From positions 1-64,000 of the IMG/VR virus record IMGVR_UViG_3300042402_007915: 64,000 nt of DNA. The stretch is one strand, 5' to 3'. Positions 11,422 through 28,936 of the stretch are shown piece by piece. The position numbers and the translations under genes were made by a program. Source of the stretch: a virus. The notes under the pieces are model-generated. The model was not told the DNA's origin, searched no databases, and was given only the letters and a program-made list of their open reading frames with translations. Every line of letters begins with the position of its first letter. Position 1 is the first letter of the stretch.

Positions 11422-11561
11422 CCAAGGCCCGAAGGGCCAAAGGGTAAGGACACGGTCCCGGGGAGGGGCAGTAATGGGACAAACACGGACAGGCTGGCTT
11501 TAAGCCAGCCCTTGCGATTGGGTTTGACCTTGAGGAAGAAAGAAGGGCCGCGCTTCTTGCG

Positions 11562-12311: not shown

Positions 12312-12432
12312 TTATGTGCATACCTCCACGGAACCCAACCCCTGAAGGGGGTCGCCACTACTTTTCCTTTCGAGGTCATTTATTAAGAAACAAAGCCCCG
12401 CTAATCCAATGAAGGATTAACGGGACTTGGGA

Positions 12433-13005: not shown

Positions 13006-13199
13006 TGGATGCTCCATAATGAGGGAGGTATTCCCTACTTGTGAACTGACCTCACGAAGTGTAGAACGGTGACCTTGAGGAAGGATTTGAGATGGCGCGG
13101 TTTGTGTGCGTGAAGGCGCGGCCACCCTATTATTCTCTCGAGGTACCTTGTCCTCCTCATACCTAAACCAAACACCTATTAATAAACTAATCCAATAGA

Positions 13200-13360
13200 A
13201 TTGGAATGGGAATGGGATAATGGGAAGGAGTGGGATGGAACTGCAATGGGATAATACCTGGAAAGGAACTGGGATAAGACTGCAATGGGATAAGGGGAAG
13301 GAACTGGGATAAACTGTAATGGGATAACTGCAATGGGATAAACTGCAATGGGATAATACC
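13200..13360. repeat. iteron-like direct repeats ACTGYAATGGGATAA / TGGGATAA (candidate origin)
   Basis: Five 15-mers (13240, 13279, 13313, 13327, 13342) and about eight TGGGATAA cores in a ~1.2-kb non-coding tract. Confidence 0.75.
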
Positions 13361-14236
13361 TGGTCCTCTCCACAAACATATAATATTAACAACTAACCCC
13401 TCGCACACGTACTTCTCACTTATCTCTCACTACACTCTCACTTAGGTCTGAACATCTAACTCTCTCAAGGTATATGTGTTTGGTTACTATGTTTGGTTTA
13501 GTTTGAATATTTATACCCCTGGGGTCCGGGGGTTGAAGTACCTTGTTTGGTTGATAGGTAATCCGTTTTTTCTCGGGTTTAGAGTTTTGGTTGGTGTTGG
13601 GACCCTGGGGGTTAGTGTATTTATTGACCTTGAGACATAAAGAGGTGGCGCGAACCCTCTCACGACACCCGAATCCCAGTTCCTAAACCTCTCCAGGTTC
13701 ACATTTCAGTATCATTTCGGTGACAGATTTGTGACAGCACTGTCCGGAAGGACTGATTATTTTATTCTTTCTCTTATGCAAGAAACACTTATACCCCGCA
13801 GGTCTTATCTGCAGGGTCCGATTCCAGTTTTGCTGGTCCTAAGTATCTATCTCTACCCTTCACTAATGAGTTTCGTGCTGGTTCATCCCCTCTAAGGATC
13901 TCCAGTTCACCATACATGCATTGTAGGATTGGTGTCTGATAGTTTTGACAGTTAGGTTGGTATGAAAGATTTGGGTTATTGTGTATTCCAGTGCAGATGT
14001 TCTCCAACTCGGGAGTAGTCCGGGAGAGGAACCAATAACCGATCCGGGTTTGTTTATAGCATTGTCCTTGAGAGAAAGATAGATGGCGCGGCTCTTTCAT
14101 GACTATCCTATTTCCAAGAACAGGACTGCTTGTGCGGAGTAAGGCGGCCCCTTCTATTTCCACTCAAGGTAAACTCGCAAGAGAAACATAAGACCGCCAC
14201 CTGGTTTGGTGACGGTCTCTCAGTACAGGTTGATCT

Positions 14237-14722
14237 TCAGCACCGGGGCAGCTCTGTCCACCCAAAGTGAAGGATGTAGGGCTCGCCTCCCTTCACTGTG
14301 AGCTTGACGTGGTTTCTGAATCCCGGTGTGTCCGGCAAGTTCCCGGACATCTCAAACACCAGGTTCATCTTCTCCAGCTCTTCCAGGGGGAGGCCAAGAA
14401 AGGAGAACAGCTCGACTCTTCCTGCGAAGATGTCCCAGACCTCCGCCGCCTGAACGCAGCAGGGAAAGGCCTCGAGGCTGAACACCCCGAAGTGGGGAGG
14501 ATCCTCCTCGAAGACGGACGCGGCCATGGCGTCCACCTCCTCTTGCTCGCCCTGGGACTCGTAGGGCTCCCAGGAGCCTCCCAGTTCCGGCCTCTCGTAG
14601 ATGATCGAGGGGCTGTACGGGGGTTTGCACAGGAAGGCCCGGATCATTGCCAGGCCCCTGTAACCGGTAACGGTACGGGACTTGAGTCCCGGGACCACCA
14701 AGTGGTAAGTGTTTTGGTTCAT
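14237..14722 (-). CDS. hypothetical protein
   Basis: AAGGAGG RBS; downstream of the hairpin element 14737-14757. Confidence 0.75.
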   Translation of the reverse strand: MNQNTYHLVVPGLKSRTVTGYRGLAMIRAFLCKPPYSPSIIYERPELGGSWEPYESQGEQEEVDAMAASVFEEDPPHFGVFSLEAFPCCVQAAEVWDIFAGRVELFSFLGLPLEELEKMNLVFEMSGNLPDTPGFRNHVKLTVKGGEPYILHFGWTELPRC

Positions 14723-14736
14723 GAACACCTCCTTGG

Positions 14737-14801
14737 GAACTTAAGTCCCGAAGGGATTTGTTTGTTTATTTATTTACCTTGAGGAAGAATAGGGTGGCGC
14801 C
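14737..14801 (-). promoter_or_regulatory. composite element: GAA-triloop hairpin plus CCTTGAG-N12-GGCGCC box
   Basis: GAAC TTAA GTCCC GAA GGGAT, followed ~20 bp later by CCTTGAG GAAGAATAGGGT GGCGCC; the pairing recurs at 13043, 15389, 16370 and 18220. Confidence 0.6.
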
Positions 14802-15159
14802 CATTCGTCAGCCAGTCAAGCCGGCGGAGTCATACCCGCGTAAGGGCCGCCCCTCTATTTATCCCTCCAGGTAAACCCAGCCAGTCAAGCTCGGGCCAAA
14901 CCCCTCCAGTCAAACCCAGGAAGGGATGGGGCCGAAGCTGCACACAGGCCAGGCCACCACAGGCCTGGCCCGGAGCCGACCGAACTGAGTGGTAACTCAG
15001 GGAACGCACCAACCCGAAGGGTTAGGTTGAAGTAGGCCTGGTCTGGGGATTGTAACCCAGGAACGCACAGGGCCTTGAGATAAGGGTGGGGTGACTATTT
15101 ATCGGGAACTAAACTCCCCCGGCTTCTATGCAACGAAGCGTGCCACCCTATTTATTTAC

Positions 15160-15392
15160 GAAACAAGAGCCCCCGACATGCCGGGGGCTCAAGGAGACTT
15201 TTTAACGCAAGACGTCCTCACCCAATGGGCTCGGTCTTAGCGGACCTGGCTTGCTCAAGGCCAGGAACATTTTCTTCGAAGCCGGCCGGGACATCCCACC
15301 GGGTGACTTCGCGAGGGCAGCTGCACTCTATGAGCGCCGCACTTTCCCCGCAGAGGTGACCAGCACTCGTCAGTGGTGGTTCTCCAAGGAAC
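15160..15392 (-). ncRNA. putative structured small RNA
   Basis: Starts at the hairpin element 15389-15408 and ends at the terminator GAGCCCCCGGCATGTCGGGGGCTC-TTGTTT; GC-rich stems, no RBS-led ORF. Confidence 0.35.
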
Positions 15393-15500
15393 ACAAACCC
15401 CGAAGGGGAAACAGGCCCTTGAGGAAGGAATAGTTGGCGCCGCTTAGAGTGAGTATTTATAAGAGAAACAAAGCCCCGCCACATGGGGCGGGGCGTAGGC

Positions 15501-16277
15501 TCAGCGGCGGGCCTGGGGCATGGGCCGGCCCAGGAGGCCGGCCAAGACCTCCTCCTGGCGGTCGTAGGCGGTGCAGGCCGCCTTGGCCCGCTTGACGTTC
15601 GCCTTCCGGCGAACGCTCTGGGCCTGGAAGGCCACGATGGCCTCCCAGTCGAGGCCGAGGGAGTCGCAGTCTGCCTGAGCGAGGCCGTCCTGCGCCGCCA
15701 TGGCGGCGCAGTGCGCGAGCCACAAGTCGTACGAATGCCGCCCCTCCGCTTCGGCGGCGCGGTGGGCGGCGATGGTGGTCTCGAGCCTGTCCACCCAGGC
15801 CTCGGAGGCCAAAGCGCCCGCGAGGGCCAGGACCTTCCCGTGGACGGCGACCACGGTTTGGACCTTGCGGCCACCCACGACGTCGTTCAGCCAGCCCTTC
15901 TCGGGCTCGGCGCGAACGATAACGAGGAGGCCTCCTTCCAGAACGGCGTAGACCGTCCGGTTGGTGCACGTCCGATGGACCAGGCGCTCGCCGGGCAGGG
16001 GGCTGACGATGCCCCCGTGGATGGTGTCGGAGGGGGGGCAGGCCTTCGCGAGCCCGTTCCGCCAGAGGCGGTAGTCTTCCCCGCTCCAGGCGGGAAAGGA
16101 CGCAGCCTGGGCGTCGACCGCCCAGGCGTGCTGGCGCCGCAGCGCCTCCTTCTGGAAGAGCTGGAACTCGGCGGGGGAGCAAGCGCCCGCTTGCACGGCG
16201 ACCCGGTCGAGGGCCTGCTCCGCCTCAGCCATAGTGAGGGTGGCGAGGCTGTTCACGAACACGGAAAGGTTGAACAT
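15501..16277 (-). CDS. hypothetical protein
   Basis: 258 aa, GGGAG RBS, GC-rich codons, terminator-like hairpin downstream. Confidence 0.75.
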   Translation of the reverse strand: MFNLSVFVNSLATLTMAEAEQALDRVAVQAGACSPAEFQLFQKEALRRQHAWAVDAQAASFPAWSGEDYRLWRNGLAKACPPSDTIHGGIVSPLPGERLVHRTCTNRTVYAVLEGGLLVIVRAEPEKGWLNDVVGGRKVQTVVAVHGKVLALAGALASEAWVDRLETTIAAHRAAEAEGRHSYDLWLAHCAAMAAQDGLAQADCDSLGLDWEAIVAFQAQSVRRKANVKRAKAACTAYDRQEEVLAGLLGRPMPQARR

Positions 16278-16488
16278 GTTGACTCCCGGTCGGTCTTACC
16301 AGCCGTGCGAATGTGGCACTACACTCCAGTACAACACTGGGATGTAGTTGGTCCGGTAAGACTCTCCATGAACCTACACTCCGAAGGAGAAACATTTGCC
16401 CTTGAGAGATGATTGGGGATTAGAGGTGGCGCCGACTTGTTGAGTGAGTATTTATTGAGGAAACAAAGGCCCGCCGAAGCGGGCCAGG

Positions 16489-16713
16489 CTACCCTTGGAG
16501 CCATTTCGTGTCCACCCCGTCGGGGATGGGCACGTTGGAAGGCCACCGCCCTTCATGGACAACAACATCTTCGGCTATGTAGCGAGCCTCCCATACACTA
16601 TTCTGGGAGACTTCGTCCTGGACAACATCCAGGACGGCTTCGAGCTGGTTTCTACTAACCAGCCAGGGCTCTTTGATGGCCCTGTCAATCAGGGCCTTCT
16701 GTTCTGGTGACAT
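16489..16713 (-). CDS. hypothetical protein
   Basis: GGAGG RBS; bounded by the hairpin element at 16729 and a UUCG terminator. Confidence 0.7.
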   Translation of the reverse strand: MSPEQKALIDRAIKEPWLVSRNQLEAVLDVVQDEVSQNSVWEARYIAEDVVVHEGRWPSNVPIPDGVDTKWLQG

Positions 16714-17093
16714 CCTTGCACCTCCGAGGAATAGAACTCCCGAAGGGCATATTTATTGGGGGAAACAAAGGCCCGCCGAAGCGGGCCGGGCTACGGGAGG
16801 AACAGGGCCACCTCGAAGAGGGCGCGCCACCTATTTTCCCTCAAGGGCACAACGATTATTTATCAAGAAGAAACAAGAGCCCCTCCAATCCATTTAAGGA
16901 CAGAGGGACTCTCATAAAGACAGAGGGCCACAAGCCCTCCATCCCCGTTTACGACTGCTCCAAGGTTACCCTTGTGAGTCGAGCGATTCACGCTCACCCA
17001 TGCAGTACGGCTCTGCATGGGATTAGGAGATTGAGGAGGCCCAGTCGCCTGGGCTCCCTCCTCCGTCACCGAACCAAACCCCCCGAAGGGGGA

Positions 17094-17279
17094 TTAACGA
17101 GTGGCCTGGCTACGCAACCAGGCCACTTTTCCGCTCGCCGCGTGGGCAATACCCCGGGCCTTTTTCAGCCACGGGGAGTTCTTTTTCCAGCGGGGGGTAG
17201 CCCGCTTGGCAGCGTAATAGTACTGCCAGGCCCTCCACTCCGCGCTGAGGGCGTTCTCGAGCTCCTCTTCCAGGTCCAT
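17094..17279 (-). CDS. small Trp/basic hypothetical protein
   Basis: GGAGG RBS, ATG 17279. Confidence 0.6.
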   Translation of the reverse strand: MDLEEELENALSAEWRAWQYYYAAKRATPRWKKNSPWLKKARGIAHAASGKVAWLRSQATR

Positions 17280-17427
17280 GGTCACCTCCAAAGAAACCTT
17301 CAGAACTTAATCCTGAAGGGAGCGCGGAGTGCTGATAATGGCGGCCACCTCTTTATTCTCCTCAAGGGCCCATTATTTATAACAAGAAACAAACCCCGCC
17401 CACCAATGAAGGTGAACGGGGCTGGGA

Positions 17428-18162
17428 CTACCAGGTGACGTGGCCGAAGCCAAGGTTCAACATCCAGGGGTCGGGCTCGACGAGCCGGCGGACCGGCCCT
17501 TCGGGGGGAGCAGGCACTTTTGCCCACTCCATGACCTCGAAGTCGGCTGGCGTGAGGCTGGCGATGCGGGCCTCGGCCTCTTCGGCTTTGGCCTCCAGTC
17601 CCGGAATCTTGACCTGGTACCAGGCCAAGAGATCAACGGCGCGTTCGTCGGCCTGAGAGGCGTACTTGGTCCCGGTGGTCCCGGGAGGCCATTCGAGAGT
17701 GGCCCACCCCGAATCCCGGCCCCGGGGCTTGTGGTGGATTACCACCTTGGTCCCCTTGGGCCACCAGCCCAAGAGGTCACCCTCGGCGTCCTGGACCACC
17801 CCGCCCACGAGACGGACTGGGGTGTCCTCCGCCAGGACGTGGTCGTGGCAGAGGCGAGCCGGGATGTGGGCCGCCGGGAGGTGCGCGTTGCGCACCTCCA
17901 CCTGGACCGCCCGTGCTTCGGCTTCGGCGGCCCGGGCTTCGACTTCCGGAAGGAGGCCCTTGAGGTGGGCCGCCTCCTTCCGCCAGTCTTCAACGTTGAC
18001 CAGGTCGCTCTGAGCGGCGTGCAGCCGCCCCTGCACCGGCCACAAGTACCCTTTGCCCTCGTCACCGTACCCGACGAAGAGGTGGGGGACAGGATCCACC
18101 ATCCGGGGGATGATGGGGGTCTCGGAGATCACGTAACCGTACTTCCAGCAACGATAGAACAT
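17428..18162 (-). CDS. hypothetical protein
   Basis: GGAGG RBS, ATG 18162 (MFYRCWK); GC-rich codons. Confidence 0.75.
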   Translation of the reverse strand: MFYRCWKYGYVISETPIIPRMVDPVPHLFVGYGDEGKGYLWPVQGRLHAAQSDLVNVEDWRKEAAHLKGLLPEVEARAAEAEARAVQVEVRNAHLPAAHIPARLCHDHVLAEDTPVRLVGGVVQDAEGDLLGWWPKGTKVVIHHKPRGRDSGWATLEWPPGTTGTKYASQADERAVDLLAWYQVKIPGLEAKAEEAEARIASLTPADFEVMEWAKVPAPPEGPVRRLVEPDPWMLNLGFGHVTW

Positions 18163-18830
18163 AATAACCTCCACAGGACTTGCAGAGCCTGGTCTATCCA
18201 GGATGCAGTCCCTATCAATGAATCCACATCACGAAGTGTACAACATTAGTAGTGTTGTATAGTTTGGCCCTTGAGAGAATGAATGGCCGCGAGCTTCGTG
18301 TGAGCGGAGTTGGTTTGGAGTGGGGATTTGGGTGGCATCAACAAAGCGGCGGCTATCCTATTTCTCTCAAGGTAACAAAGAAGAGAAGACCCCTCTAACA
18401 TTTAAGTCAGAGGAGTCATGGTGAATACGCTTAAAGGGGAACCACCCCTACCAAACTAATCCCCTAAGCGCTGGGGAAGAAAGGAGATGAACTAACATAG
18501 CCTGGCCGCACCAAAGAGGGTACTAACATGACTTATCAACCACCAAGCACCAGGCCATGAAAGTCCAATCCCAACGAACAGAAACCCCCGAAGGGGAACA
18601 AAGGAAAGAACCTTGAGTGGGAAAGGGGAAGGATACCCACCTCAAAGCCAAACCCATCAACCCAAACAAGCCACAACGTCCAAGCGGAGTGCGCGTGGCA
18701 CACTGGGTCTGCCCTTGACTCGGAGTCCGGCGGAGTAACAAGAAATTAAAATAAAAAGGGGCCCCATTTCTGGAGCCCCTCCCAGGCAGTTAAGCCCGGC
18801 ACCCCCTACGCATTGTAGAGGGTGTTCGAA

Positions 18831-21800
18831 TCAATCCGGGACGTACTCAGTCCATTCGCCGAAACTTGGCTGGTCGTCTTCCGACTCCTCAGCACTAGGA
18901 CCATCCAAATAGGTGTCCTTCAAGTCTTCGGCGAAGCCCATGATGCTGATCCAGGAGGAGTAAATCCCCTGTTCAACCAAGCGGGCAAAGAACTCAGTAT
19001 ACATCTCATCCACCGCTTCCGGTTTCAGGAATGCGCGTTTACGGTTACAGGGCACCATTCCGGCGATACTGTTCCGATACGCATCCTTAGCCCGGAGCTC
19101 CCATCTACGTTGGGTCATTGCAAAATGGAGTGACTTGTCATCACGCAATTTCTTCTGCAATGCGGCAGTCAGCGAAACCAACTTGCCAGTAGACGGGAAA
19201 GCAGGAGCATTCGCGCTGCGGATACGAGCGACAGCAGCCTTTTTCAAGACAGCCATGCACTCTTCGCACTCGTGAAGAGGCTTATGCTTGGTCCGGAAAT
19301 GTTCCACCTGGATCCCAGGCACCTCCCCTTCTTGCGTCGGGTAGGCGTAAGCCGTGTCGAAGGCGAGCTCTGCAACCAAGGCACAGAGTTTAATCTCGTT
19401 CTTCCCACGGAGAGGAGTCAGCTTATGCTTCGAGACAAAGTAGCTAACATATCCGTCAGCATCCTCCGCCGTCAGCAGGCAAGACTCCTTGGTCTTGGTG
19501 GAAATGATATCCAGAAAGGTTGACCCCTCAAAGCACAGGGCGTCGAGAGCCCTGCTGTCTGCTTTGGTGAGCCAGTTCAAGCCGCCGTCTTTCTTGACGT
19601 TCAACTCGGACTGGGGGGTGCCCAAGGGTTTGTCCCCAACCTTCTGGAGCTCGACATAAATACCCGCCTCATTATTCCCACGCCGGTAGGCGATACACGA
19701 GAACAAGCTTTCGCGTGCCCAAGTGATCCAGGGAGCCAGGGCGTCTTTAGCCTGCTCTTCCCGCATTTCAGCCGAGAACTGCTCGTAAGCAAAGTCCATC
19801 GCCAATTTGCGAGCACTACTGGACTCTTGCGAGTCCGAGTTGTGGCCTTCCCCTTCACGGGTTTCCCCGTTCGAGTCGGACAAAGACATAGCCTCATAGA
19901 TGTTCTGATCGAGCCGAGCCAGCGGGTGGAGCGGGACTTTCGTCTTCTCCATCCACTTACCCATGGCATCGAAATCAATACACCGGCTATTCTGCAGGCG
20001 CCAGACAACGCGTTGATCGCGCCAAGCCGCCAAATGAGAACCCTCAGCAGGGTTTTTCCAAGAGTCCCCCTCCCCTTGGATAGTCCGGAAGATCTTATCT
20101 ACCACCCAGAAGAGCGGCAGCCGCTTCTCACCATAGTTCACCATCGGAGGGGTCGCCCCGCTCTGTTCGGCTTTCTGGTGGAGAGCACGGAGGATCCGGT
20201 AGGGAAGCCCTGCGCAAGGCTTAGCCGGGCGGTTAAACCCAAGCTCCTCACGCCGCTTTTCCCAAATTTGACACGCTTTGGTGTAAGCGATGTCAGAGAG
20301 ATTCGCTTGGTACCTCAACGACCCGAAGGCGTTGGGATCAATCCGCTTCCGGAGACGCTCACCCATTGCTGAGTTATTGCGCCGCCATCCGAGGACACCA
20401 AAGAACGCACTCATACCAACCGCCTCCTTAAACTTATCCTGGAAGTAAATCAGGACTTCGTCGGAGGAAATCAGCCGGCATTTTTGCGACAAGGTGAGCG
20501 AATCGAAGGTCTCGGCCGCTTCTCCAGGTATCAGCTTGAGGACAGCCTTATCCTGGTCGAGGAAGTTCTCAGATGAGATACCATTCCCCTTGAGCGAGCC
20601 AAACTTGAACGCCTTCCCGTTGGAGTCAAGGTCGTAGTGGCAGTAGATGTGACCATCTGCCATTTTCTTCCAGGCCCGAAGGTTAGAAACCTTCGGAGCG
20701 TTCGTCCAGCGCACGATCCGCTTGGCGCGGTCAATGCTTTCCTGAATGAACGTACCCCATGCGGGAATCCATCCTTTAGCTGCGTCAACGATATATTTCA
20801 CTCGTTCCGCGAGACCAAGGAACCCATCACCATCCTGCCAAGTAGCAGGGTTGGATTTCTGCTCAGACCAATAGAGGCTTTTAACCCTCCTAAAGGCAGC
20901 ATGCCACTTGCCCATTCCCTCAGGATCTTCCTTGAGGTACTCGATTTTATCGAGCCGAGCCCAGTACCGCAGATCAACGAGGCGCGCCTGATTAATGGCG
21001 TACGCACGAGCCTGCAGAATAGTGGCTTGCCCCACAGGACCCATAGGATCCTTGAGCAGGTAACCGTAAAACGCCTCTTGATCCTCGAAAGGAATCGACA
21101 TCTTTTCGCCAGCCGGTTCGATCCGGAAGGTAGGCTGCCAGATCCGACGGTTTGCAAGGAGTTTCACATCCTCGTCCGTGGTCCAAGCAGCAATGTCGCC
21201 GTCGTCGTCACCCTGGAGATCGGTTACATCATCCGGGTTCATGAAGACAGCAAAAGGAACGACAATCCGGTCGACTACCTCACCGTCAGCGTTTGCCACA
21301 CTCAGCGTCATGTGGGGGAGGGGATCCACCACCTTAAGCGTCATGAGCGACTGAGGGAGAATAGCAGGAAAGCGCCAAAGAACCGTTTCATCGCCTACAG
21401 CGGGAAGCTTCTGGTTAACACCGCCGATCACGCACTCACCCTTGTTCAGGGAGTTGTCCATGACCATGACGACCTGGTTCCCTTCGAAACCGGTGCCATT
21501 GGCAATGTTATACAGTCGCCGCTTGAGCTTATCCTCTGCCATCTGACGAAGGACAGGGATGTCAAGCAAGCTGTAGTCGAGTCCAAGCTCTTTAGCAACC
21601 CGAACCATGGTGATCTGGTTGTTGAGGGTGGTGTTGCCGCCACTATCCTCAGAGATCAAACCATCGACACCATCCTTGAGCAGCTTATCCATGGCCTTTT
21701 GGACCAAGCGTTCGACTGCCGCGGTAGTGTCGTTATCGACCTTGACGAGCTGCAATAGCTCAAAGCATGACTTGATCGTGCTTGCGCGTGACCAAGTCTT

Positions 21801-23000
21801 GAGAATGCCCAAATGAGCCTTAACAACCATTTCAGCGTCCACCTCATCCTGCGCTTTCGCCCAGTCTTTGGCAGTACCCTTAATCTGGTTCCAAGCAACC
21901 CGGACAGTGGGGTTACCGGCTGCATCGACACAAGTTTCATCGGGAACCAACAAGCCTTTAAGGAACATGTTCCTGTGCTCGGGGTTACCGGTGACTTCTT
22001 CGAGGCAGAGGCCACGAATTTGGATAACGGGAGCGATCATCCCACCCTGGTATGCGACCCCGCGTTCTTGGATGAACGCTTGAAGGAATTCGCAGTTCGG
22101 GTGGTACTTACCACTACCGTCAACCAAAGCCCGGATCTTCTTACCCTCGCGGTCGTTCACCCAAATATTACTAAGGGTTACTGGTACCTCGGGGAAGAAA
22201 CCACCGGGCAAAAGCGGGGACTTGAATGAACCAACGTAGGAACCCACGTTGATCGCATCACCGAAGACACGCTCCAGCAACGCAAAGGCAAAATGTTTGC
22301 CACCATTCTTACCCAAAGTGTTGAAGGCGGTCCGCCCTTCGAGCACACCCATATCATTCTGTCGGAAGACAGGATAGAGCAGCTCTCCAGGGGGCCTCCC
22401 CAGATTCTCCGTTGATTCGACCGGCAGGAAGAAATCCCCGTCGATATCAAGGAGCCCGTTGTGCCGCAAGACACAATCGAGCAAGCCTGGGGCCCGAAGG
22501 ACCTCCAAAGTTTGCACGCAAGGGAGGATTTTCTCCCGAGCAATGCTAGTCATTGCCGTAAAGTGGTAGGGGCTCTCAAAGCGATCCCCTTCCCGGCAAT
22601 GAGCATAAGCCTCAGCAGCATCCTCCAAGATGCCGTTCGACTTGAAGAAGCTGAGTGCAGTCTTGGACTGACCAGCAGCTGCAGCCATCCGGCCGGAGGA
22701 CTTGCGTTCCACCCGACCATAGGTCTGCATAATCTTGGTGCGGCGATAGAGCGCCGAGTTAGCCATCATGGCCGCGTACGTCGAGCGCCGCGCATCCAAT
22801 TTGGCCTTCAGCTTCTTAGCCGCAACCAGCAAAATCTGATCGACCTCGTCGGCCGTATCAGCGGGGATTGGAGTCCCCTTAATCAGCGCACGGAGAATCC
22901 CCGGCGCAAAACGACGGAGCACCTTTTCCAGGCGCCCGTTCGCTGCCAGAAGGGGCGGCACCACGACGGTGCGCCTCTCCTGGACTTCTGTTGCTTCCAT
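18831..23000 (-). CDS. single-subunit two-barrel RNA polymerase (YonO / QDE-1 RdRP-like)
   Basis: Motifs in order DGSG, IQIRG...KGLL, WRFP, DLQGDDDGD, VGQ, IDRAK, matching the cellular RdRP/YonO fold; AAGGAG RBS before ATG 23000 (alternative start 23054). Confidence 0.85.
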   Translation of the reverse strand: MEATEVQERRTVVVPPLLAANGRLEKVLRRFAPGILRALIKGTPIPADTADEVDQILLVAAKKLKAKLDARRSTYAAMMANSALYRRTKIMQTYGRVERKSSGRMAAAAGQSKTALSFFKSNGILEDAAEAYAHCREGDRFESPYHFTAMTSIAREKILPCVQTLEVLRAPGLLDCVLRHNGLLDIDGDFFLPVESTENLGRPPGELLYPVFRQNDMGVLEGRTAFNTLGKNGGKHFAFALLERVFGDAINVGSYVGSFKSPLLPGGFFPEVPVTLSNIWVNDREGKKIRALVDGSGKYHPNCEFLQAFIQERGVAYQGGMIAPVIQIRGLCLEEVTGNPEHRNMFLKGLLVPDETCVDAAGNPTVRVAWNQIKGTAKDWAKAQDEVDAEMVVKAHLGILKTWSRASTIKSCFELLQLVKVDNDTTAAVERLVQKAMDKLLKDGVDGLISEDSGGNTTLNNQITMVRVAKELGLDYSLLDIPVLRQMAEDKLKRRLYNIANGTGFEGNQVVMVMDNSLNKGECVIGGVNQKLPAVGDETVLWRFPAILPQSLMTLKVVDPLPHMTLSVANADGEVVDRIVVPFAVFMNPDDVTDLQGDDDGDIAAWTTDEDVKLLANRRIWQPTFRIEPAGEKMSIPFEDQEAFYGYLLKDPMGPVGQATILQARAYAINQARLVDLRYWARLDKIEYLKEDPEGMGKWHAAFRRVKSLYWSEQKSNPATWQDGDGFLGLAERVKYIVDAAKGWIPAWGTFIQESIDRAKRIVRWTNAPKVSNLRAWKKMADGHIYCHYDLDSNGKAFKFGSLKGNGISSENFLDQDKAVLKLIPGEAAETFDSLTLSQKCRLISSDEVLIYFQDKFKEAVGMSAFFGVLGWRRNNSAMGERLRKRIDPNAFGSLRYQANLSDIAYTKACQIWEKRREELGFNRPAKPCAGLPYRILRALHQKAEQSGATPPMVNYGEKRLPLFWVVDKIFRTIQGEGDSWKNPAEGSHLAAWRDQRVVWRLQNSRCIDFDAMGKWMEKTKVPLHPLARLDQNIYEAMSLSDSNGETREGEGHNSDSQESSSARKLAMDFAYEQFSAEMREEQAKDALAPWITWARESLFSCIAYRRGNNEAGIYVELQKVGDKPLGTPQSELNVKKDGGLNWLTKADSRALDALCFEGSTFLDIISTKTKESCLLTAEDADGYVSYFVSKHKLTPLRGKNEIKLCALVAELAFDTAYAYPTQEGEVPGIQVEHFRTKHKPLHECEECMAVLKKAAVARIRSANAPAFPSTGKLVSLTAALQKKLRDDKSLHFAMTQRRWELRAKDAYRNSIAGMVPCNRKRAFLKPEAVDEMYTEFFARLVEQGIYSSWISIMGFAEDLKDTYLDGPSAEESEDDQPSFGEWTEYVPD

Positions 23001-23069
23001 GTGACTCCTTTGTCTGGGAAGCGAAGGGTTGGGGAATATCGACGTTATTGTCATACCCCGCGTGACTCG

Positions 23070-23090
23070 GAACCCACCCCCCGAAGGGGG
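23070..23090 (-). promoter_or_regulatory. GAA-triloop hairpin element upstream of the polymerase gene
   Basis: GAAC CCAC CCCCC GAA GGGGG. Confidence 0.6.
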
Positions 23091-23168
23091 GTTGGGAACA
23101 CGAATCCATAAAAAAGAAAAAGAAAAAAGAAGGCTGGAAATGTTCCAGCCCCCTTTTGAGTCAGTTAG

Positions 23169-24211: not shown

Positions 24212-24354
24212 AGTCCCTCCTAAGGACATTGAAGAGTTGTAATTTATCGTACCACTGGATTGTGATACGAAACCCATAGAAACAAAAAGGGGCCCGTTAG
24301 GGCCCCTAGCTAGTATTTACCACGCGCCCTAGCTAGGCGCAGAATACGACGTGC

Positions 24355-24579
24355 CTAGAACGGCATCTCGTCGTATTCTTTCCCCTCTTCGGGAGCGGAA
24401 AGGGCGGGGACATAGCCCGCCCAAGGATCCGGGCGGCGCTCGGCCGCCAGGAGGTGAAAGAGAACGAGCTTCTCCTGGGCCAAAGCCCAGGAGAGGTCGC
24501 TGTGAGTGCGGCAGGTGTGGCATTCACCACACCCGACCGCACAGCCGCGGAAACGGTTGTCAATAACTTGCACCTTCAT
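24355..24579 (-). CDS. small Cys-rich protein with SSB-like tail
   Basis: AAGGAGG RBS; CAVGCGECHTC; ends YDEMPF. Confidence 0.7.
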   Translation of the reverse strand: MKVQVIDNRFRGCAVGCGECHTCRTHSDLSWALAQEKLVLFHLLAAERRPDPWAGYVPALSAPEEGKEYDEMPF

Positions 24580-24610
24580 AGTTCCTCCTTAGGAACTAGG
24601 GCTTAATTGC

Positions 24611-24692
24611 CCATGAGAAAGAAAAAGGCCGCCCTTCCTAAGAGGGCGGCCTGTGACCATGCTTTTTTGTTAACTCGGAAAGCCAACCGAGC
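24611..24692. repeat. ~85-bp double-hairpin intergenic repeat, copy 1
   Basis: Similar copies at 25182-25261 and 27878-27958. Confidence 0.75.
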
Positions 24693-24697
24693 GAGAC

Positions 24698-25090
24698 TCA
24701 GAGAGTCTCGATCTCCTCCTCCCGGAGACGATACATCTCCGCGACGCGCCGCCGGGCCGTCTCCCAGTTTTTATCTTCTGCGCAAATCTCGGCCGTGCGA
24801 CCTTGATATGAGAACCTAAACCAGTAAAACCTGTAGATGGTGGGCCAGCCGGGCCCGCTGACCCATCTCACCGGGTCGCAGTCACCGCCCGCCTCGGAGA
24901 AGCCGTCGAGGTCGTCGGGGTCATCGCACATATCATGGTTAAGAAAGACGTCTTCGTCGTCCCCATGACAGTCCTTGGCGGCGGGGGCGGCGGTGGTGAT
25001 CATGCCGAGGTAGGCCTCGAGCTCGACCCAGCCGTCGCCGCCGAGGTCGAAGTCGAAGTCGAAGCGGTTGCCGCGGTTGGTGCTGGACAT
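24698..25090 (-). CDS. acidic hypothetical protein
   Basis: GGAGG RBS before MSSTNRG; Asp-rich. Confidence 0.65.
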   Translation of the reverse strand: MSSTNRGNRFDFDFDLGGDGWVELEAYLGMITTAAPAAKDCHGDDEDVFLNHDMCDDPDDLDGFSEAGGDCDPVRWVSGPGWPTIYRFYWFRFSYQGRTAEICAEDKNWETARRRVAEMYRLREEEIETL

Positions 25091-25181
25091 GTTGTCCTCC
25101 ATGGTACAATACCTAATACCTCATAAGCCCATCATACTAAATTGTATGACTGCCTCCTTTTGGCTTCAATAGATACGAGTA

Positions 25182-25261
25182 CCATAGAAAGAAAAAGGTC
25201 GCCCCTCCTAAGGGGGCGACCTATGACCATGCGTTTTTGACGCCCGGAACGCTAACCGGGG
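25182..25261. repeat. double-hairpin intergenic repeat, copy 2
   Basis: CCATAGAAAGAAAAAGG-stem-TCCTAAG-stem-GACCATGC. Confidence 0.75.
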
Positions 25262-25265
25262 GCCA

Positions 25266-25625
25266 CTACTTGGTAGTGGCCAGGGCAACCCAGGAGGGCG
25301 TGCCGATCGTCAGGGCGGTGAGGCCCAGGACGCCGGCGAAGGTCGCCGGCACCAAAGCCGTGAGGCCCAGCAAAGACACCGCCGCCACAAGGACGGCGGC
25401 AGCGGCCATACGGGGGGCGATGAACTTCCGCACCGCTCGCGCGGTGCGGGCCACGGGGCGCCGAGGGGCGCGAATGACGCGACCCTCGGCAAGAGGCGAG
25501 ATGGAGGCCGCGACCCAAGCCGCCTCCATCGGGTTCGGGGCCGGGAGGGAGGCCGCCGCCTCAACGGCGACCTCCAGGGCGACGGGGAACTCCGCCGCAA
25601 CAAAAGACATCTGGATATGGTTCAT
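25266..25625 (-). CDS. membrane protein
   Basis: GGAGG RBS; two C-terminal TM segments. Confidence 0.7.
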   Translation of the reverse strand: MNHIQMSFVAAEFPVALEVAVEAAASLPAPNPMEAAWVAASISPLAEGRVIRAPRRPVARTARAVRKFIAPRMAAAAVLVAAVSLLGLTALVPATFAGVLGLTALTIGTPSWVALATTK

Positions 25626-26350
25626 ACGAACCTCCAGCGGGTATTTCTACCCGAATAGTTGGGGAATCGCTCCCCCGGGGCCATAACACGCTCTGGCAGG
25701 CGCCAACCTCTTAATTATACTCCCAGAGATTGGTGTAGGAGTTTGGTGTCAAGGCTTCTAAGTACCTTGACGGGATAACCTCAGTTATCCACTTGGTCTG
25801 TCGGGAGTTTAGTGTCCGTGTGTGGTTTGACCAGTAACACACACAGACATCGGTTGCGTGAGCATAGGCTGCTCCTTTCGGGCCTGTAGGAGAGTGGGTT
25901 AGTTTTAAGTGCGGCCACTATTCCTCCCCTAAGAGAATAGCTTTCACACTAATGGGTTAAGCCCATTACTCTGTCCCTCTAGGTCTCTTTAGACTCTATA
26001 CCTTGAGGGGATAAGAAGAGGCGCGGCTATTACGTAAGCCGCTCCTGGGATGATCCAGGACGCAATCCTTTTCACTCCACTGTGAGTGTTGGACCCAATT
26101 CCTATCTCTAGGTATTGGATTGGATTGATTCCCGCCAGACACGAACGCCGGCCATTAGTCCTGGCCCCGAAGGGCTTAGGATGCTTTGAGTCAATTGCTC
26201 ATAGAAATAAAAAGGATGAAAGAAAAAGGACCGCGTCTTTCGACACGGTCCTATTCCAAACTACAAGCGAGCCTAAACTCCCTTGCAGTTGTCCTCTACA
26301 CGGCTGTTAATCCCGGTAGAGCGCCCGATGAGCGGGTCTTTAGCCCCCCC

Positions 26351-27004
26351 TTACTTCAGGGGGAGCTTTTGGGTGAGGGGGCGGGGCGGCAGGGGCCGGG
26401 GGGCCGGGGTGGGGCGCGCCTCGAGGGCGCGCCCGTAGGCCTTGCCCTTCTGGTACTGGGCCTGGGCGATCGCGGCCCGCAGGCCTTCCTGCGTGGCCTT
26501 GTACTCCCAGCCCGGCATCAGCCGGGCGGCGGCCCGCAGCAGGGTGACCTGGCGGTCGGTGACCGAGATCTTGGCCGCCGTCCAGGCGGCGAGGGCCGCC
26601 TCGGCCTTGGCCAGCGAGGCGGTGTCGGAGGCCGCCTTCTCCCGGGCCTCCTTCTGCTTGAGGGCCTCCTCGGCAAGAGCCTGGAGGCCCTCGCCGCTCG
26701 CCGCCGCCTTGGCCAGCTTCCGGTTGCGCTCGGCCTCCTGGGCGAGCGCCTTGGAGGCGGCGCGGGCCGCCTCCGTCTCGGCCAGGAGGGCCTGGACGGC
26801 GACGCCCTCCTCCATCCCCTCGCTCAAGAGGAGGAGGGCCTTGGCCTCCTCCTCCTCCTTGCGGGAGAGCGGGGCGGCCTTGGCCGCCTCCGCCGCCTTC
26901 TGGGAGGCGACCTTGGCGGCCTCCTCGGCCTTGGCCGCCAAGGCGGCCTTGAGGGCGGTCAGGGCGGCGGTGGCGGCGGGGGCGACAGTGCTGTTGGTGG
27001 ACAT
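26351..27004 (-). CDS. Ala/Glu/Lys-rich coiled-coil protein
   Basis: GGAGAG RBS, ATG 27004; very GC-rich codons. Confidence 0.75.
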   Translation of the reverse strand: MSTNSTVAPAATAALTALKAALAAKAEEAAKVASQKAAEAAKAAPLSRKEEEEAKALLLLSEGMEEGVAVQALLAETEAARAASKALAQEAERNRKLAKAAASGEGLQALAEEALKQKEAREKAASDTASLAKAEAALAAWTAAKISVTDRQVTLLRAAARLMPGWEYKATQEGLRAAIAQAQYQKGKAYGRALEARPTPAPRPLPPRPLTQKLPLK

Positions 27005-27392
27005 GGTTGTCTCTCCAGGTCTTGTGCCTACACCCTCAAGCTCTATATTGTACGACATGTACAAGTGAGCTCTATTGGTATGCAGGCCTTAAGACCATAG
27101 AAATAAAAAGGGGCATGCCCTAGTGCGTCAAATAGTTCTCCGGTCAAACGACTAAGCTAAATAGAATGAAAAAAAAGGATCGCGCCCAAGCTTTGTTAGA
27201 GCTGTTCTGGGGAGAACTCGCTAGTCAGTTGTGTTTACCTTGAGGGATAAACTTAGCTGGCGTCATTGAGATCGACCCCAAAGCTCACATTAAGCTTGGG
27301 CAATCTGCTCGGTCGGTAAGACCATAAAAGAAAAAGGGCCCGATGAGCGGGTCCCTACCTTTGTTTAACGTCTTTAGGTTAGACGTCCCGGG

Positions 27393-27614
27393 CTAGAACG
27401 GCAGGCCGCCGTTGTTCGCCCGGGAACCGGGCCCCCACTCGGTGAGCAGGCGCTGGGCCTGCTCATTTGTGGGGGAGGGACGGCCGAGATCATCCCAGAT
27501 CTCGACCGTCCCATAGCGGGCGTGGGCCTCCTCGGCCATCTGCAGGCCGAGGAGGATATCCTCCCGCAAAAGCTTTGCGGGAATACGCCGAGGAGGCTTA
27601 GGACTCTTCAGCAT
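27393..27614 (-). CDS. hypothetical protein
   Basis: GGGAG RBS, ATG 27614; ends GGLPF. Confidence 0.6.
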   Translation of the reverse strand: MLKSPKPPRRIPAKLLREDILLGLQMAEEAHARYGTVEIWDDLGRPSPTNEQAQRLLTEWGPGSRANNGGLPF

Positions 27615-27722
27615 GGCTGAATCTCCCAATCCTTGCATATCTGCTTTCACCATTAGCAGATAGGGGCTTAATTGCCCATAGAAGAAAAAAGAGGGGCGCG
27701 CCACTACGACACGCCCCTCTAG

Positions 27723-27869
27723 CTACCCTGGCCCAAGAGGAAGGGGCAGCTGCTCCGCCTTCCTCTTCTTGCCTCTGGGCTTTTTCCACCCAGAGACAAC
27801 GGGAGCCAGTGGTTCTGTCACCACTGGCTTCTCGTAGCCAGGGAGCCTTGGCTGTTTATCTTCAGCCAT
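27723..27869 (-). CDS. 48-aa peptide ending KKAEQLPLPLGPG
   Basis: GGAGG RBS; bounded by repeat/terminator modules; absent from the ORF track. Confidence 0.6.
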   Translation of the reverse strand: MAEDKQPRLPGYEKPVVTEPLAPVVSGWKKPRGKKRKAEQLPLPLGPG

Positions 27870-27877
27870 GCTCACCT

Positions 27878-27958
27878 CCATAGAAAGAAAAAGGCTATCC
27901 CTCCTAAGGGGATAGCCTATGCCAGTGCTTTTTTGTTAACTCGGAAAGCTAACCGAGA
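27878..27958. repeat. double-hairpin intergenic repeat, copy 3
   Basis: GCTTTTTTGTTAACTCGGAAAGCTAACCGAG is nearly identical to copy 1. Confidence 0.75.
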
Positions 27959-27964
27959 GGGTAG

Positions 27965-28105
27965 TTAGATCTTCTTGATCTTCTCCCCAAAAATCAGGAG
28001 GATGAAAAACAGAACGATGCCAACGAACATCGTCGTGGCGTCGCCCTCATACAAACCCTTGAGGAAGCAGAAGCAACCAATGCCCAAAATCGGAAGAATG
28101 AACAT
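27965..28105 (-). CDS. small two-TM peptide
   Basis: GGAGAG RBS, 46 aa. Confidence 0.6.
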   Translation of the reverse strand: MFILPILGIGCFCFLKGLYEGDATTMFVGIVLFFILLIFGEKIKKI

Positions 28106-28232
28106 AGTACTCTCCAAAGAGCCTACTACCCTTACCTCAAGGCACGCGTGTACCCATGTACACCCACCTATATCGGTTTCTATAGTAGCTAGACCCATAG
28201 AAAGAAAAAGGGCCCTAAGGCCCTGTGTACCA

Positions 28233-28382
28233 CTACTTGCAGCGGTACATGCAGGCGGTAAGAATACCGCCTGCGAAGGAGAACACCCCCGCCACAAGGG
28301 CGGGGGTGTGGGAGACGGTGACACCCAGGGCAATCAAGCCCATGAGCGCCACCGACGGGGCGTACTTCACGATAGGGCTCAT
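28233..28382 (-). CDS. small two-TM peptide
   Basis: AGGAGG RBS, 49 aa MSPIVKYAPSVALMGL...; absent from the ORF track. Confidence 0.6.
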   Translation of the reverse strand: MSPIVKYAPSVALMGLIALGVTVSHTPALVAGVFSFAGGILTACMYRCK

Positions 28383-28528
28383 CCCTACCTCCTACCCATA
28401 CACTACCCCTATACTACATGCCATGGTACCCACTACCATGCACATACTAGGGGATATAGGTATGGGCTATATGTCGTAGATAGTAAAGAAAAAGGCCACC
28501 ACACCTTACGGTGTGGTGGCCTAGTGCC

Positions 28529-28732
28529 TCAGTAGAAGCGCGGGCGAGGGCCGGGGCGGCCCGCCTCGCGCCACTTGTGGACCTGCTCCTGCCAGCTCTT
28601 GACCGGCCAGGAGCCGTACAGGCCCGCCTTCTCGTCGGCCTCGATCATCTTCTCCCAGCTCCAGGCCCCCATCCAGCCGAGGCTGGAGGTGACGATGGTA
28701 ACGACGATGAAGAAGCGGAAGTTGTCAGACAT
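28529..28732 (-). CDS. small membrane protein
   Basis: GGAGG RBS, ATG 28732, N-terminal TM segment. Confidence 0.65.
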   Translation of the reverse strand: MSDNFRFFIVVTIVTSSLGWMGAWSWEKMIEADEKAGLYGSWPVKSWQEQVHKWREAGRPGPRPRFY

Positions 28733-28936
28733 GTGTCCTCCAAGGTCTACCCATCTCTTCCTCATATGCTCACTATGCACGAAGCATAGTTGCATCCTTT
28801 CGGATTCTGGATGGGTTAGATCCATAGAAATAAAAAGGGACTACCCATTGCATTGCGGTAAGTCTGCCAAGGCATATTACTTTACCCGGGTGGGCTCGCA
28901 ACGATAGGGGACCCTAAAATCGCCTATATCAATACC

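What the first reader, a model, noticed from the sequence alone, without database searches (positions are those of the whole stretch)
18831..23000. Large YonO / eukaryotic-RdRP-like polymerase
The motif series DGSG, IQIRG-x-KGLL, RFP, GDDDGD (21195-21209), VGQ, IDRAK follows the QDE-1/RDR and SPbeta YonO order. About 600 residues follow the last core motif and may supply promoter recognition without a sigma factor. Its own leader carries both a CTATGG-type element (23106) and a triloop hairpin (23070), which suggests a hand-over or autoregulatory point. DNA versus RNA template preference cannot be read from sequence.
Basis: partly seen in the sequence, partly recalled or inferred. Interest (0 to 1): 0.78.

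Follow-up and report, generated by a model that had tools for sequence, protein, structure and literature searches.

The report
Phage single-chain two-barrel RNA polymerase
A 1,389-residue "hypothetical" gene in the early arm of an uncultured 147-kb contractile-tailed phage encodes a single-chain RNA polymerase with the same two-barrel core as cellular RNA polymerase and the RNAi polymerases, and it sits at the boundary between two conserved families of gene-start signals.

Summary
Observation confirmed.

The predicted fold is a QDE-1/RDR2-like two-barrel polymerase (Foldseek E 5e-10; VIA Z 14.8). It is not a YonO-family member by sequence (hhalign 1.8%). The nearest characterised relative is the Thermus phage P23-45 gp64 non-virion RNAP (hhalign 88%, E 2.8e-6), which is less than half its size.

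The family has about 160 clusters, all metagenomic. It has no Pfam or PHROG model, no cultured phage and no prophage.

Genome layout copies P23-45: polymerase gene, then a block of small upstream genes, then a divergent junction, then terminase and portal. A second polymerase-like protein in the tail module was flagged by earlier notes of this scan on this same genome.

Two cis-element classes meet in the polymerase leader:
- Class A is a hairpin, a T-tract and TATGG. It lies at 23.1-28.9 kb.
- Class B is a GC hairpin with a TTC triloop followed by GTTC. It lies at 4.7-23.1 kb, with 13 copies on the - strand and 0 on the + strand genome-wide.

The A-then-B leader is conserved in relatives of 40% identity.

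Best reading: a DNA-dependent non-virion RNAP in a two-polymerase cascade. The template, promoter assignment and C-terminal function are inferred. It is a new, larger member of a known kind.

The parts
18831..23000 (-). Polymerase gene: 1389 aa from the ATG at 23000, stop codon included. An in-frame upstream ATG at 23054 would give 1407 aa; residue numbers in this report count from 23054.
21876..22121 (-). First barrel (beta-subunit-like, DPBB-B) motifs: DGSG, IQIRG, F-x-KG, NQIKG-x2-K. Q345, K366, G367 and K392 are invariant.
   Evidence: (strands at model residues 117-260)
21195..21377 (-). Second barrel (beta-prime-like, DPBB-A): WRFP, then 52 residues, then Q-G-DDDGD. This is the metal-binding Asp triad D616/D618/D620.
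   Evidence: VIA alignment of model residues 355-458 to designed and natural DPBBs, Z 9.6. pLDDT above 90.
20718..20747 (-). IQESIDRAKR motif at the end of a long helix (candidate bridge helix). It aligns with IQVAVDRQKR of P23-45 gp64.
19257..19481 (-). Family-invariant C1192 ... H1252 ... C1263-x2-C1266 (plus R1279): candidate zinc site in the C-terminal region.
23106..23157 (-). Leader element of class A: a terminator-like hairpin (GGCTGGAA/TCCAGCC), a long T/C tract and TTATGG.
   Evidence: Conserved in orthologue leaders.
23070..23092 (-). Leader element of class B: a 7-bp GC stem with a TTC triloop, followed by GGGTTC.
   Evidence: Conserved in orthologue leaders.
23005..23011 (-). Shine-Dalgarno AAAGGAG, 4 nt before the ATG at 23000.
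18754..18783 (-). Intrinsic-terminator-like hairpin plus T-run, 48 nt after the stop codon.
24274..28834 (-). Cluster of class A elements (hairpin + TTTTTnTTTCTATGG), each just upstream of a small gene. Copies at 24274, 24626 (variant), 25182, 27095, 27322, 27676, 27878, 28195 and 28822.
   Evidence: 8 matches against 0.33 expected
4737..18592 (-). Cluster of class B elements (GC stem, TTC triloop, N3-5, GTTC), each a few bases before a ribosome-binding site. Copies at 4737, 5956, 7484, 8262, 11433, 12335 (TTCA-loop variant), 14752, 15404, 16385, 17087 and 18592.
61270..64000 (+). First part of a 1767-aa tail-module protein (runs to 66573 in the genome) with R-x-P ... DADGD ... motifs. It is the candidate virion polymerase that would act before this enzyme.
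   Evidence: earlier notes; motifs invariant in 4 homologues; co-occurrence. The fold was not tested by me.

Best explanation
The gene encodes a single-subunit, two-barrel (double-psi beta-barrel) nucleotidyl transferase of the QDE-1-like clade. It most probably acts as the phage's own non-virion DNA-dependent RNA polymerase.

Shown here:
- the fold;
- the catalytic RxP...DxDGD barrel and the lysine-bearing partner barrel;
- remote but specific homology to the P23-45 gp64 non-virion RNAP;
- a P23-45-like genome layout;
- two strand-specific, spatially separated families of gene-start elements that meet in this gene's leader, and their conservation in relatives.

Inferred: a temporal cascade as in P23-45.
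1. An RNAP available at infection reads the AT-rich class A signals at 23.1-28.9 kb. This is the tail-module two-barrel protein if it is injected, otherwise the host enzyme. It thereby transcribes the small pre-early genes and this polymerase gene.
2. The new polymerase then takes over at the class B GC-hairpin/GTTC signals that precede the genes at 4.7-23.1 kb. One of these lies in its own leader, which would give positive autoregulation.
3. It does this without a sigma factor.

The large family-conserved C-terminal region with its Cys/His/Cys-x2-Cys site probably completes the clamp or neck. It may contribute to promoter binding.
For: Fold:
- Foldseek against the PDB is topped by QDE-1 (7y7r, E 5.3e-10) and RDR2. 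P74-26 gp62 (8f5m), the 8f72 entry matching P23-45 gp64, crAss gp66 (6vr4) and gp96 (8h2m) follow.
- VIA scores: 7w84 Z 14.8 (466 aligned), 7y7p Z 12.2 (500 aligned), 8f5m Z 10.9.
- BFVD returns uncultured-phage proteins and P23-45 gp64.

Catalytic residues are invariant in 113 sequences. The RxP-x52-DxDGD spacing matches the filter used by Chaban et al..

Specific homology: profile against gp64 gives hhalign 88.4%, E 2.8e-6, over 151 columns through RxP, DxDGD and IQxxxDRxKR. HMM against PDB sequences gives 8f72 as best hit, E 0.024. Controls were YonO at 1.8% and gp96 at 0.9%.

Layout: the polymerase gene, the upstream small-gene block on the same strand, the divergent junction, and then terminase and portal match P23-45 gp64/gp65-78/gp85-86.

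Elements:
- Class A: 8 matches against 0.33 expected, all on the - strand at 24.2-28.9 kb.
- Class B: 13 on the - strand and 0 on the + strand in 147 kb, 12 of them at 4.7-23.1 kb.
- The A-then-B leader is conserved in L003, L005, L006 and L010.
- Class B recurs downstream of those orthologues.
- A class A cluster of 7 copies lies upstream of the 29%-identical gene in a complete 183.5-kb genome.

Sigma-70-like sites are not enriched at 18-31 kb: 5 found against 6.5 expected.

A homologue of the tail-module protein co-occurs in both related records large enough to judge.

P23-45 precedent: the vRNAP reads a highly conserved AT-rich motif and the nvRNAP a GC-rich motif (PMC10770324).
Against: - No activity, template or transcript data exist. 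The phage is uncultured and its host is unknown.
- The structural neighbours QDE-1 and RDR2 are RNA-templated enzymes, so fold alone does not give DNA dependence.
- Each class A element is also a textbook hairpin + T-tract terminator, and class B hairpins could be terminators, processing sites or mRNA-stabilising structures. Gene-start position does not separate these readings.
- Assigning A to the first enzyme and B to this one rests on position and analogy only.
- I did not test the fold of the tail-module protein, and it shows no sequence similarity to gp96.
The C-terminal 220 residues have no confident fold match.
Confidence: 0.65

Rival explanations
1. It is the late-gene polymerase, as YonO is for SPbeta. 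It would be made early from host or virion-enzyme promoters and would transcribe the structural and lysis genes on the + strand.
For: YonO, the best-known single-chain two-barrel phage RNAP, transcribes only late genes (PMC5467207). Something must transcribe the 30-64 kb structural arm, and no sigma-70 enrichment was seen nearby.
Against: Neither repeated element class occurs on the + strand of the structural arm. The family is far closer to gp64, which reads early and middle genes, than to YonO. In P23-45 the late genes are left to host RNAP.
Confidence: 0.15
2. It is itself packaged in the virion and injected, like crAss gp66 or N4 vRNAP, and transcribes the first genes.
For: crAss phi14:2 gp66 is among the structural matches (6vr4, E 2.3e-5). 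Large size is typical of injected polymerases.
Against: The gene lies in the small-ORF early arm on the opposite strand from the structural module, preceded by its own gene-start signals. A different polymerase-like protein occupies the tail module. The closest relative, gp64, is non-virion.
Confidence: 0.1
3. It is an RNA-dependent RNA polymerase, like its best structural matches. It would make antisense or double-stranded RNA from phage or host transcripts, for example for regulation or counter-defence.
For: The top fold matches are QDE-1 and RDR2. One of 31 distant family members touches Pfam RdRP PF05183 at E 0.0016. QDE-1 has both DNA- and RNA-templated activity (PMC9508822 abstract).
Against: Both phage members of this clade whose activity I checked in papers, gp64 and YonO, are DNA-dependent transcriptases (PMC10770324, PMC5467207). 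The conserved, strand-specific DNA signals before genes fit transcription initiation. No role for RNA copying in a dsDNA phage is known.
Confidence: 0.07
4. It is an inactive or non-transcriptional relative: a structural protein, or a PolD-like DNA polymerase or primase.
For: PolD shows that two-barrel enzymes can make DNA (PMC7281927).
Against: The Asp triad, RxP and partner-barrel lysines are invariant across 113 diverged sequences, which argues for a maintained active site. No PolD chain appeared among the matches, which were RNA polymerases throughout.
Confidence: 0.03

Closest known systems
Thermus phage P23-45 gp64 / P74-26 gp62 non-virion RNAP (PDB 8f72, 8f5m; Chaban et al. 2024, PMC10770324)
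   Same: Both are single-chain two-barrel RNAPs. This is the only characterised family with specific profile similarity (hhalign 88.4%, E 2.8e-6, through RxP, DxDGD and IQxxxDRxKR). The structural match is VIA Z 10.9 and Foldseek E 3e-7. The genome position is the same: downstream of a block of small genes, opposite the terminase/portal arm. Both phages have a second polymerase-like protein in the tail module and two classes of repeated upstream motifs.
   Different: - Size: 1389 aa against 616 aa.
- Extra N-terminal region, clade-specific insertions, and a roughly 500-residue conserved C-terminal region with a Cys/His/Cys-x2-Cys signature.
- Motif DDDGD rather than DYDGD.
- Host virus is a 147-kb contractile-tailed phage, not a long-tailed Thermus siphovirus.
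- The candidate cognate signal is a GC hairpin with a triloop, not the linear GC-rich gp64 motif.
- Similarity is limited to about 150 columns.
Eukaryotic RNAi polymerases QDE-1 (2j7n, 7y7p-t) and RDR2 (7w84, 7eu1); Pfam RdRP PF05183
   Same: These are the best overall fold matches (Foldseek E 5e-10; VIA Z 14.8 and 12.2 over 466-500 residues). Both have two barrels in one chain, the same motif order, a DxDGD loop and a comparable size of about 1000-1400 aa.
   Different: This protein has no Pfam PF05183 hit. Sequence identity in the structural alignments is 12-14%. It is a phage gene with gene-start DNA signals, so DNA-templated transcription is expected rather than RNA copying.
SPbeta YonO (Forrest et al. 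2017, PMC5467207)
   Same: Both are single-polypeptide two-barrel phage RNAPs that work without the msRNAP accessory domains. The DxDGD motifs align correctly.
   Different: There is no significant profile similarity (hhalign 1.8%, 39 columns). YonO is 839 aa, comes from a temperate Bacillus phage and transcribes late genes from a single start site.
crAss-like phage phi14:2 gp66 virion RNAP (6vr4)
   Same: It has a QDE-1-like two-barrel core in one chain (Foldseek E 2.3e-5).
   Different: gp66 is about 2200 aa, virion-packaged, encoded in the structural block, and has a DFDID-type motif.
Phage N4 virion RNAP hairpin promoters (from my own knowledge, not checked here)
   Same: Class B elements are short GC stems with 3-nt loops on one strand only, just upstream of genes. 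This is the geometry of N4 early promoters.
   Different: N4 vRNAP is a T7-like (palm-fold) enzyme unrelated to two-barrel polymerases. No evidence here shows that class B hairpins are promoters.

Membership tests
Two-barrel (double-psi beta-barrel) RNA polymerase superfamily, single-chain QDE-1-like clade | Two DPBB domains in one polypeptide with a QDE-1-like overall architecture | tested here: met
   AF2 model of residues 170-970 (pLDDT 69.5, pTM 0.70). Foldseek: QDE-1 E 5.3e-10, probability 1.00. VIA: RDR2 Z 14.8 with 466 aligned, QDE-1 Z 12.2 with 500 aligned; isolated DPBBs Z 9.6 on model residues 355-458.
Two-barrel (double-psi beta-barrel) RNA polymerase superfamily, single-chain QDE-1-like clade | Metal-binding DxDGD loop preceded by [RK]xP at 20-100 residues | tested here: met
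   R561-F-P563, then 52 residues, then D616-D-D618-G-D620. R561 (70/70 sequences) and P563 (69/70) are near-invariant in the 73-sequence alignment; P563 and the three Asp are invariant in the 113-sequence alignment.
Two-barrel (double-psi beta-barrel) RNA polymerase superfamily, single-chain QDE-1-like clade | Conserved basic residues in the partner (beta-like) barrel that complete the active site | tested here: inconclusive
   K366, K392 and K396 are invariant or nearly so and lie in the beta-rich region at model residues 117-260. No residue-level superposition on the QDE-1 or beta-subunit lysines could be obtained.
Two-barrel (double-psi beta-barrel) RNA polymerase superfamily, single-chain QDE-1-like clade | Templated RNA synthesis | not testable with these tools
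   Needs purified protein.
P23-45 gp64-like non-virion RNAP family | Significant sequence-profile similarity to gp64/gp62 | tested here: inconclusive
   hhalign 88.4%, E 2.8e-6, but only 151 columns. HMM against PDB sequences gives E 0.024. This is a remote relative, not the same family: length 1389 against 616 aa.
P23-45 gp64-like non-virion RNAP family | Not packaged; made from pre-early transcripts of a virion RNAP; reads its own promoter class | not testable with these tools
   Only layout and motif distribution agree.
YonO family | Detectable sequence homology to SPbeta YonO | tested here: not met
   hhalign of the 113-sequence profile against YonO gives probability 1.8%, with 39 columns around DxDGD only. 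The 7-sequence profile gives 0.8%.
Eukaryotic RdRP (Pfam PF05183) | Match to the Pfam model above threshold | tested here: not met
   No Pfam family at E <= 1 for the protein. One of 31 distant family members matches at E 0.0016.
Virion RNAPs (crAss gp66, P23-45 gp96) | Encoded in or fused to the structural module and present in particles | tested here: not met
   The gene lies in the early arm on the opposite strand from the terminase-to-tail genes. Profile against the gp96 N-terminus gives 0.9%. Particle content is not testable.

The most novel reading that the evidence does not exclude
The class B elements are hairpin-form promoters read directly, without any sigma-like factor, by this two-barrel polymerase through the parts that only its long-form clade has (N-terminal extension, insertions, C-terminal Cys/His region). 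That would be a structure-specific promoter mechanism convergent with N4 vRNAP but built on the cellular-type polymerase fold.

The enzyme would also be the second stage of a P23-45-like virion-to-non-virion polymerase relay. That relay would then be widespread in large freshwater contractile-tailed phages.

The co-variation fits this reading. Class B hairpins occur with the roughly 1400-aa clade and are absent from phages with the roughly 1000-aa form, whereas class A is shared by both.
Probability: 0.25. Interest if true: 0.8.

Novelty: new member of a known kind. Interest (0 to 1): 0.55.

Why it matters
Single-chain two-barrel RNAPs are the minimal relatives of the cellular transcription enzyme and the presumed source of the eukaryotic RNAi polymerases. 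Only YonO, crAss gp66 and the two P23-45 enzymes have been studied.

This family is a remote gp64 relative that is twice as large and has a fold closest to QDE-1/RDR2. It comes with unusually clean comparative data: two strand-specific signal classes whose boundary is the polymerase gene itself, conserved across phages of 29-40% protein identity.

That gives ready-made templates for asking how a two-barrel enzyme finds promoters without sigma. It also suggests that the P23-45 virion/non-virion relay is not a Thermus-phage oddity.

Tried and rejected
**Searches that found nothing**
- Pfam, PHROGs and phmmer against PDB sequences with the whole protein found nothing. PHROGs on 31 family members also found nothing.
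- tblastn of the protein and of two other family members against 50,697 GenBank phage records found no match.
- A pattern scan of 185,579 species genomes for the catalytic motif found no relative, so there is no evidence of prophage copies.
- The supplement of PMC10770324 that is held lists no protein with a DDDGD motif. Its Supplementary Data 3 (family alignments) is not held, so I could not check whether this family is one of the 23 already catalogued.

**Tests that came back negative or weak**
- The YonO-membership test was negative.
- The C-terminal region was modelled as residues 540-1407. Foldseek gave nothing at E <= 0.001. VIA gave only weak extension of the RDR2/QDE-1 match and unspecific helical hits for the last 220 residues or so.
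- ESM Atlas on residues 940-1407 gave one sub-threshold lead: score 0.75, a cluster in which 10% of members carry RdRP.
- The tail-module protein showed no sequence link to this family, to PDB sequences or to gp96.
- CTATGG alone is not enriched in the window: 33 found against 24 expected. Only the extended element is.

The 200-kb contig that carries a >=90%-identical (same-cluster), same-length copy (P0163) could therefore not be inspected for host flanks.

Full report
**1. What is there**

The window is the first 64 kb of a 147,225-bp virus record that CheckV rates 99% complete. It is a contractile-tailed phage:
- large terminase at 35096-37345;
- portal at 41476-43305;
- major head protein at 46166-47449;
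- tail sheath at 51284-53584, all on the + strand.

The left 30 kb is transcribed leftwards and is full of small ORFs with no family match.

The flagged ORF is the only long gene of that arm: 18831..23054 on the - strand, 1407 codons. The real start is almost certainly the ATG at 23000. It has an AAAGGAG four bases upstream, the database copy is 1389 aa, and all homologues begin 'ME'. An intrinsic-terminator-like hairpin follows the stop codon at 18783-18754.

**2. The motifs are real and conserved**

DGSG, IQIRG, KGLL, WRFP, GDDDGD, PVGQ and IDRAK occur in that order at the stated places.

- A word-indexed search found only seven relatives.
- A full HMM scan of 1.84 billion representatives found 162 clusters at E <= 1e-3, of which 124 are at E <= 1e-30. 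Most are 950-1100 aa, and the window's clade is 1350-1430 aa.
- None of the ten clusters looked up carries any name beyond 'hypothetical protein'.

In a 113-sequence alignment the invariant residues are Y273, G313, Q345, K366, G367, K392, P563, D616, D618, D620, G675, Q771, D775, K778 and W890. The spacing R561-x-P563, 52 residues, DxDGD meets the filter that Chaban et al. used for two-barrel RNAPs.

**3. Fold**

Sequence libraries are silent: Pfam, PHROGs and PDB sequences gave nothing.

I modelled residues 170-970 with AlphaFold from a 7-sequence alignment (pLDDT 69.5, pTM 0.70).

- Foldseek against the PDB returns QDE-1 (7y7r, E 5.3e-10), other QDE-1 entries, maize and Arabidopsis RDR2, P74-26 gp62 (8f5m, 3e-7), the 8f72 entry matching P23-45 gp64, crAss gp66 (6vr4, 2.3e-5) and P23-45 gp96 (8h2m). 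Multisubunit RNAP beta-prime chains follow.
- The independent VIA search gives 7w84 Z 14.8 (rmsd 6.4, 466 aligned), 7y7p Z 12.2 (500 aligned) and 8f5m Z 10.9. Isolated double-psi beta-barrels score Z 9.6 on model residues 355-458, which is the barrel that carries WRFP and DDDGD.
- A second model of residues 540-1407, from 73 sequences, puts that barrel above pLDDT 90.
- BFVD returns uncharacterised proteins of uncultured tailed phages (best 3e-15), entries auto-named 'RNA dependent RNA polymerase', and P23-45 gp64.

The fold is there.

**4. Which family**

| Comparison with the 113-sequence profile | hhalign probability | Detail |
|---|---|---|
| SPbeta YonO | 1.8% | 39 columns around DxDGD |
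| P23-45 gp64 | 88.4% | E 2.8e-6, 151 columns through RxP, DxDGD and IQxxxDRxKR |
| gp96 N-terminus | 0.9% | |

The HMM against PDB sequences also ranks the 8f72 entry (gp64) first, at E 0.024. One of 31 distant members touches Pfam RdRP at E 0.0016.

So the protein works like YonO only in the broad sense of being a single-chain two-barrel polymerase. It is not a YonO-family member. It is a remote and much larger relative of the gp64-type non-virion RNAP, with a global fold nearest to QDE-1/RDR2.

No member occurs in 50,697 GenBank phage records, in PHROGs or in a motif scan of 185,579 species genomes.

**5. The C-terminal region**

629 residues follow IDRAK. Conservation continues to about residue 1290: W795, W890, K903, then C1192, H1252, C1263, C1266 and R1279. 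The three Cys and R1279 are invariant in 73 sequences, and H1252 is found in 68 of 73. This looks like a zinc site.

The last 110 residues or so are clade-specific, poorly predicted and end in an acidic tail.

The fold search extends the RDR2 match weakly to about residue 1187 (Z 8.2). It finds nothing convincing for the rest.

In known single-chain two-barrel RNAPs the C-terminal region forms part of the clamp (PMC10770324). That is my default reading here. A role in promoter recognition is possible but untested.

**6. The leader and the two element classes**

Reading the leader 5' to 3' on the - strand:
1. A strong hairpin plus a long T/C tract, ending in TTATGG (23157-23106).
2. Thirteen bases later, a 7-bp GC stem with a TTC loop followed by GGGTTC (23092-23070).
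3. About 60 nt further on, the ribosome-binding site.

Both elements belong to families.

*Class A* (GC hairpin + TTTTTnTTT(C/T)TATGG):
- The 13-nt core has 8 matches at one mismatch or fewer, against 0.33 expected. All are on the - strand at 24.2-28.9 kb.
- Looser scans add 27322, 24626 and the leader copy.
- Each copy sits just before a small gene.

*Class B* (GC stem, TTC triloop, N3-5, GTTC, then a Shine-Dalgarno):
- 13 hairpins on the - strand and none on the + strand in the whole 147 kb.
- 12 of them lie at 4.7-23.1 kb.
- The exact core occurs 4 times against 0 expected.

The polymerase leader is the only place with both, and it is the boundary between the two territories.

**7. Comparative support**

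- Orthologue leaders at about 40% protein identity (L003, L005, L006, L010/L011) have the same order: hairpin, T/C tract, TTTTATGG, about 10 nt, then CCCCC-TTC-GGGGG and GTTC.
- Class B copies recur before the genes downstream of those orthologues, always on the polymerase strand.
- In a complete 183.5-kb genome with 127-bp terminal repeats, whose polymerase is 29% identical and of the short form, seven class A-like elements (hairpin + TTTTCTTTTA(T/C)GG) cluster on the same strand immediately upstream of the polymerase gene. Class B hairpins are absent there.

So class A is shared across the family. Class B tracks the long-form clade.

**8. Mechanism proposed**

P23-45 provides the precedent.
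- A tape-measure-fused virion RNAP reads a strongly conserved AT-rich motif before pre-early genes, one of which is gp64.
- gp64 then reads a GC-rich motif before early and middle genes.
- Host RNAP makes the late transcripts.

The P23-45 map has gp64 on the - strand, gp65-78 upstream on the same strand, and then a divergent junction to terminase and portal. This is the arrangement seen here.

Earlier notes of this scan report a 1767-aa two-barrel protein in the tail module at 61270-66573. I confirmed three things about it:
- the ORF exists;
- its R-x-P, DADGD and downstream motifs are invariant in four homologues of 25-40% identity;
- homologues co-occur with this polymerase family in the two related records large enough to judge.

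I did not test its fold, and it has no sequence link to gp96.

My best reading (confidence 0.65) is a non-virion DNA-dependent RNAP. It would be made from class A-driven pre-early transcripts and would then take over at class B sites, including one in its own leader.

Shown: fold, active-site conservation, gp64 homology, layout, and element distribution and conservation.

Inferred: DNA template, timing, which enzyme reads which element, and even whether the elements are promoters. Class A is also a perfect intrinsic-terminator shape, and class B could be a terminator, a processing site or a stabiliser.

**9. Novelty**

Phage single-chain two-barrel RNAPs are an established kind (PMC7281927, PMC10770324, PMC5467207). 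This is an uncharacterised, metagenome-only family within it. It is distinguished by its size, its conserved Cys/His C-terminal region and its clean pair of signal classes.

I rate it a new member of a known kind, of moderate interest. It has a more novel possibility attached: sigma-free recognition of hairpin promoters by a cellular-type polymerase fold.

Noticed in passing
window 5991-6779 (-): A 262-aa early-arm protein with a C-terminal Macro (ADP-ribose-binding/hydrolase) domain (Pfam PF01661, E 5e-10). It is possibly a counter-defence gene, and it is preceded by a class B hairpin at 5956.
   Followed up: no
window 1-30000: G+C content swings from 0.44 to 0.68 in 2-kb steps in the early arm, while the structural arm stays near 0.48. 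This suggests a mosaic origin for the early genes. High-GC stretches carry many overlapping spurious ORFs on both strands.
   Followed up: no
window 30564-30601 (+): A GC hairpin with a TTCG loop plus a T/C tract lies directly before the first gene of the rightward structural arm (ATG 30602). It lacks the TATGG and GTTC signatures of classes A and B.
   Followed up: no
window 7720-7741 (+): A single class A-like element sits on the opposite strand (hairpin, then CTTTTTCTTTTCTTTCCTACGG), inside the class B territory and next to a + strand ORF (7619-8356).
   Followed up: no
L013 about 2145-2290 (G004, 183.5-kb phage), upstream of its polymerase gene: The DNA just upstream of the polymerase gene consists of degenerate 15-nt tandem repeats (gggggctgacctcc-type). 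This is what a pentapeptide-repeat protein gene would look like.
   Followed up: no
family members P0056 (1641 aa), P0117 (2566 aa), P0124 (1470 aa): Some family members carry the polymerase core far from the N-terminus (match starting at residues 776, 1599 and 677). Fused forms with large N-terminal extensions therefore exist. P0117 lies on a 151-kb contig.
   Followed up: no
P0163, a same-length copy from the same 90%-identity cluster: A >=90%-identical, same-length copy of the polymerase is recorded on a 200.5-kb contig, longer than the 147-kb 'provirus' record. The flanks might show a host or a larger phage genome.
   Followed up: partly
window 23169-23924 (-) and orthologous loci: A gene of about 230-250 aa with no family match sits immediately upstream of the polymerase gene here. 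A gene of similar size sits in the same place in L003, L004 and L005 (228-230 aa). It may be a conserved partner. Homology between them was not tested.
   Followed up: no
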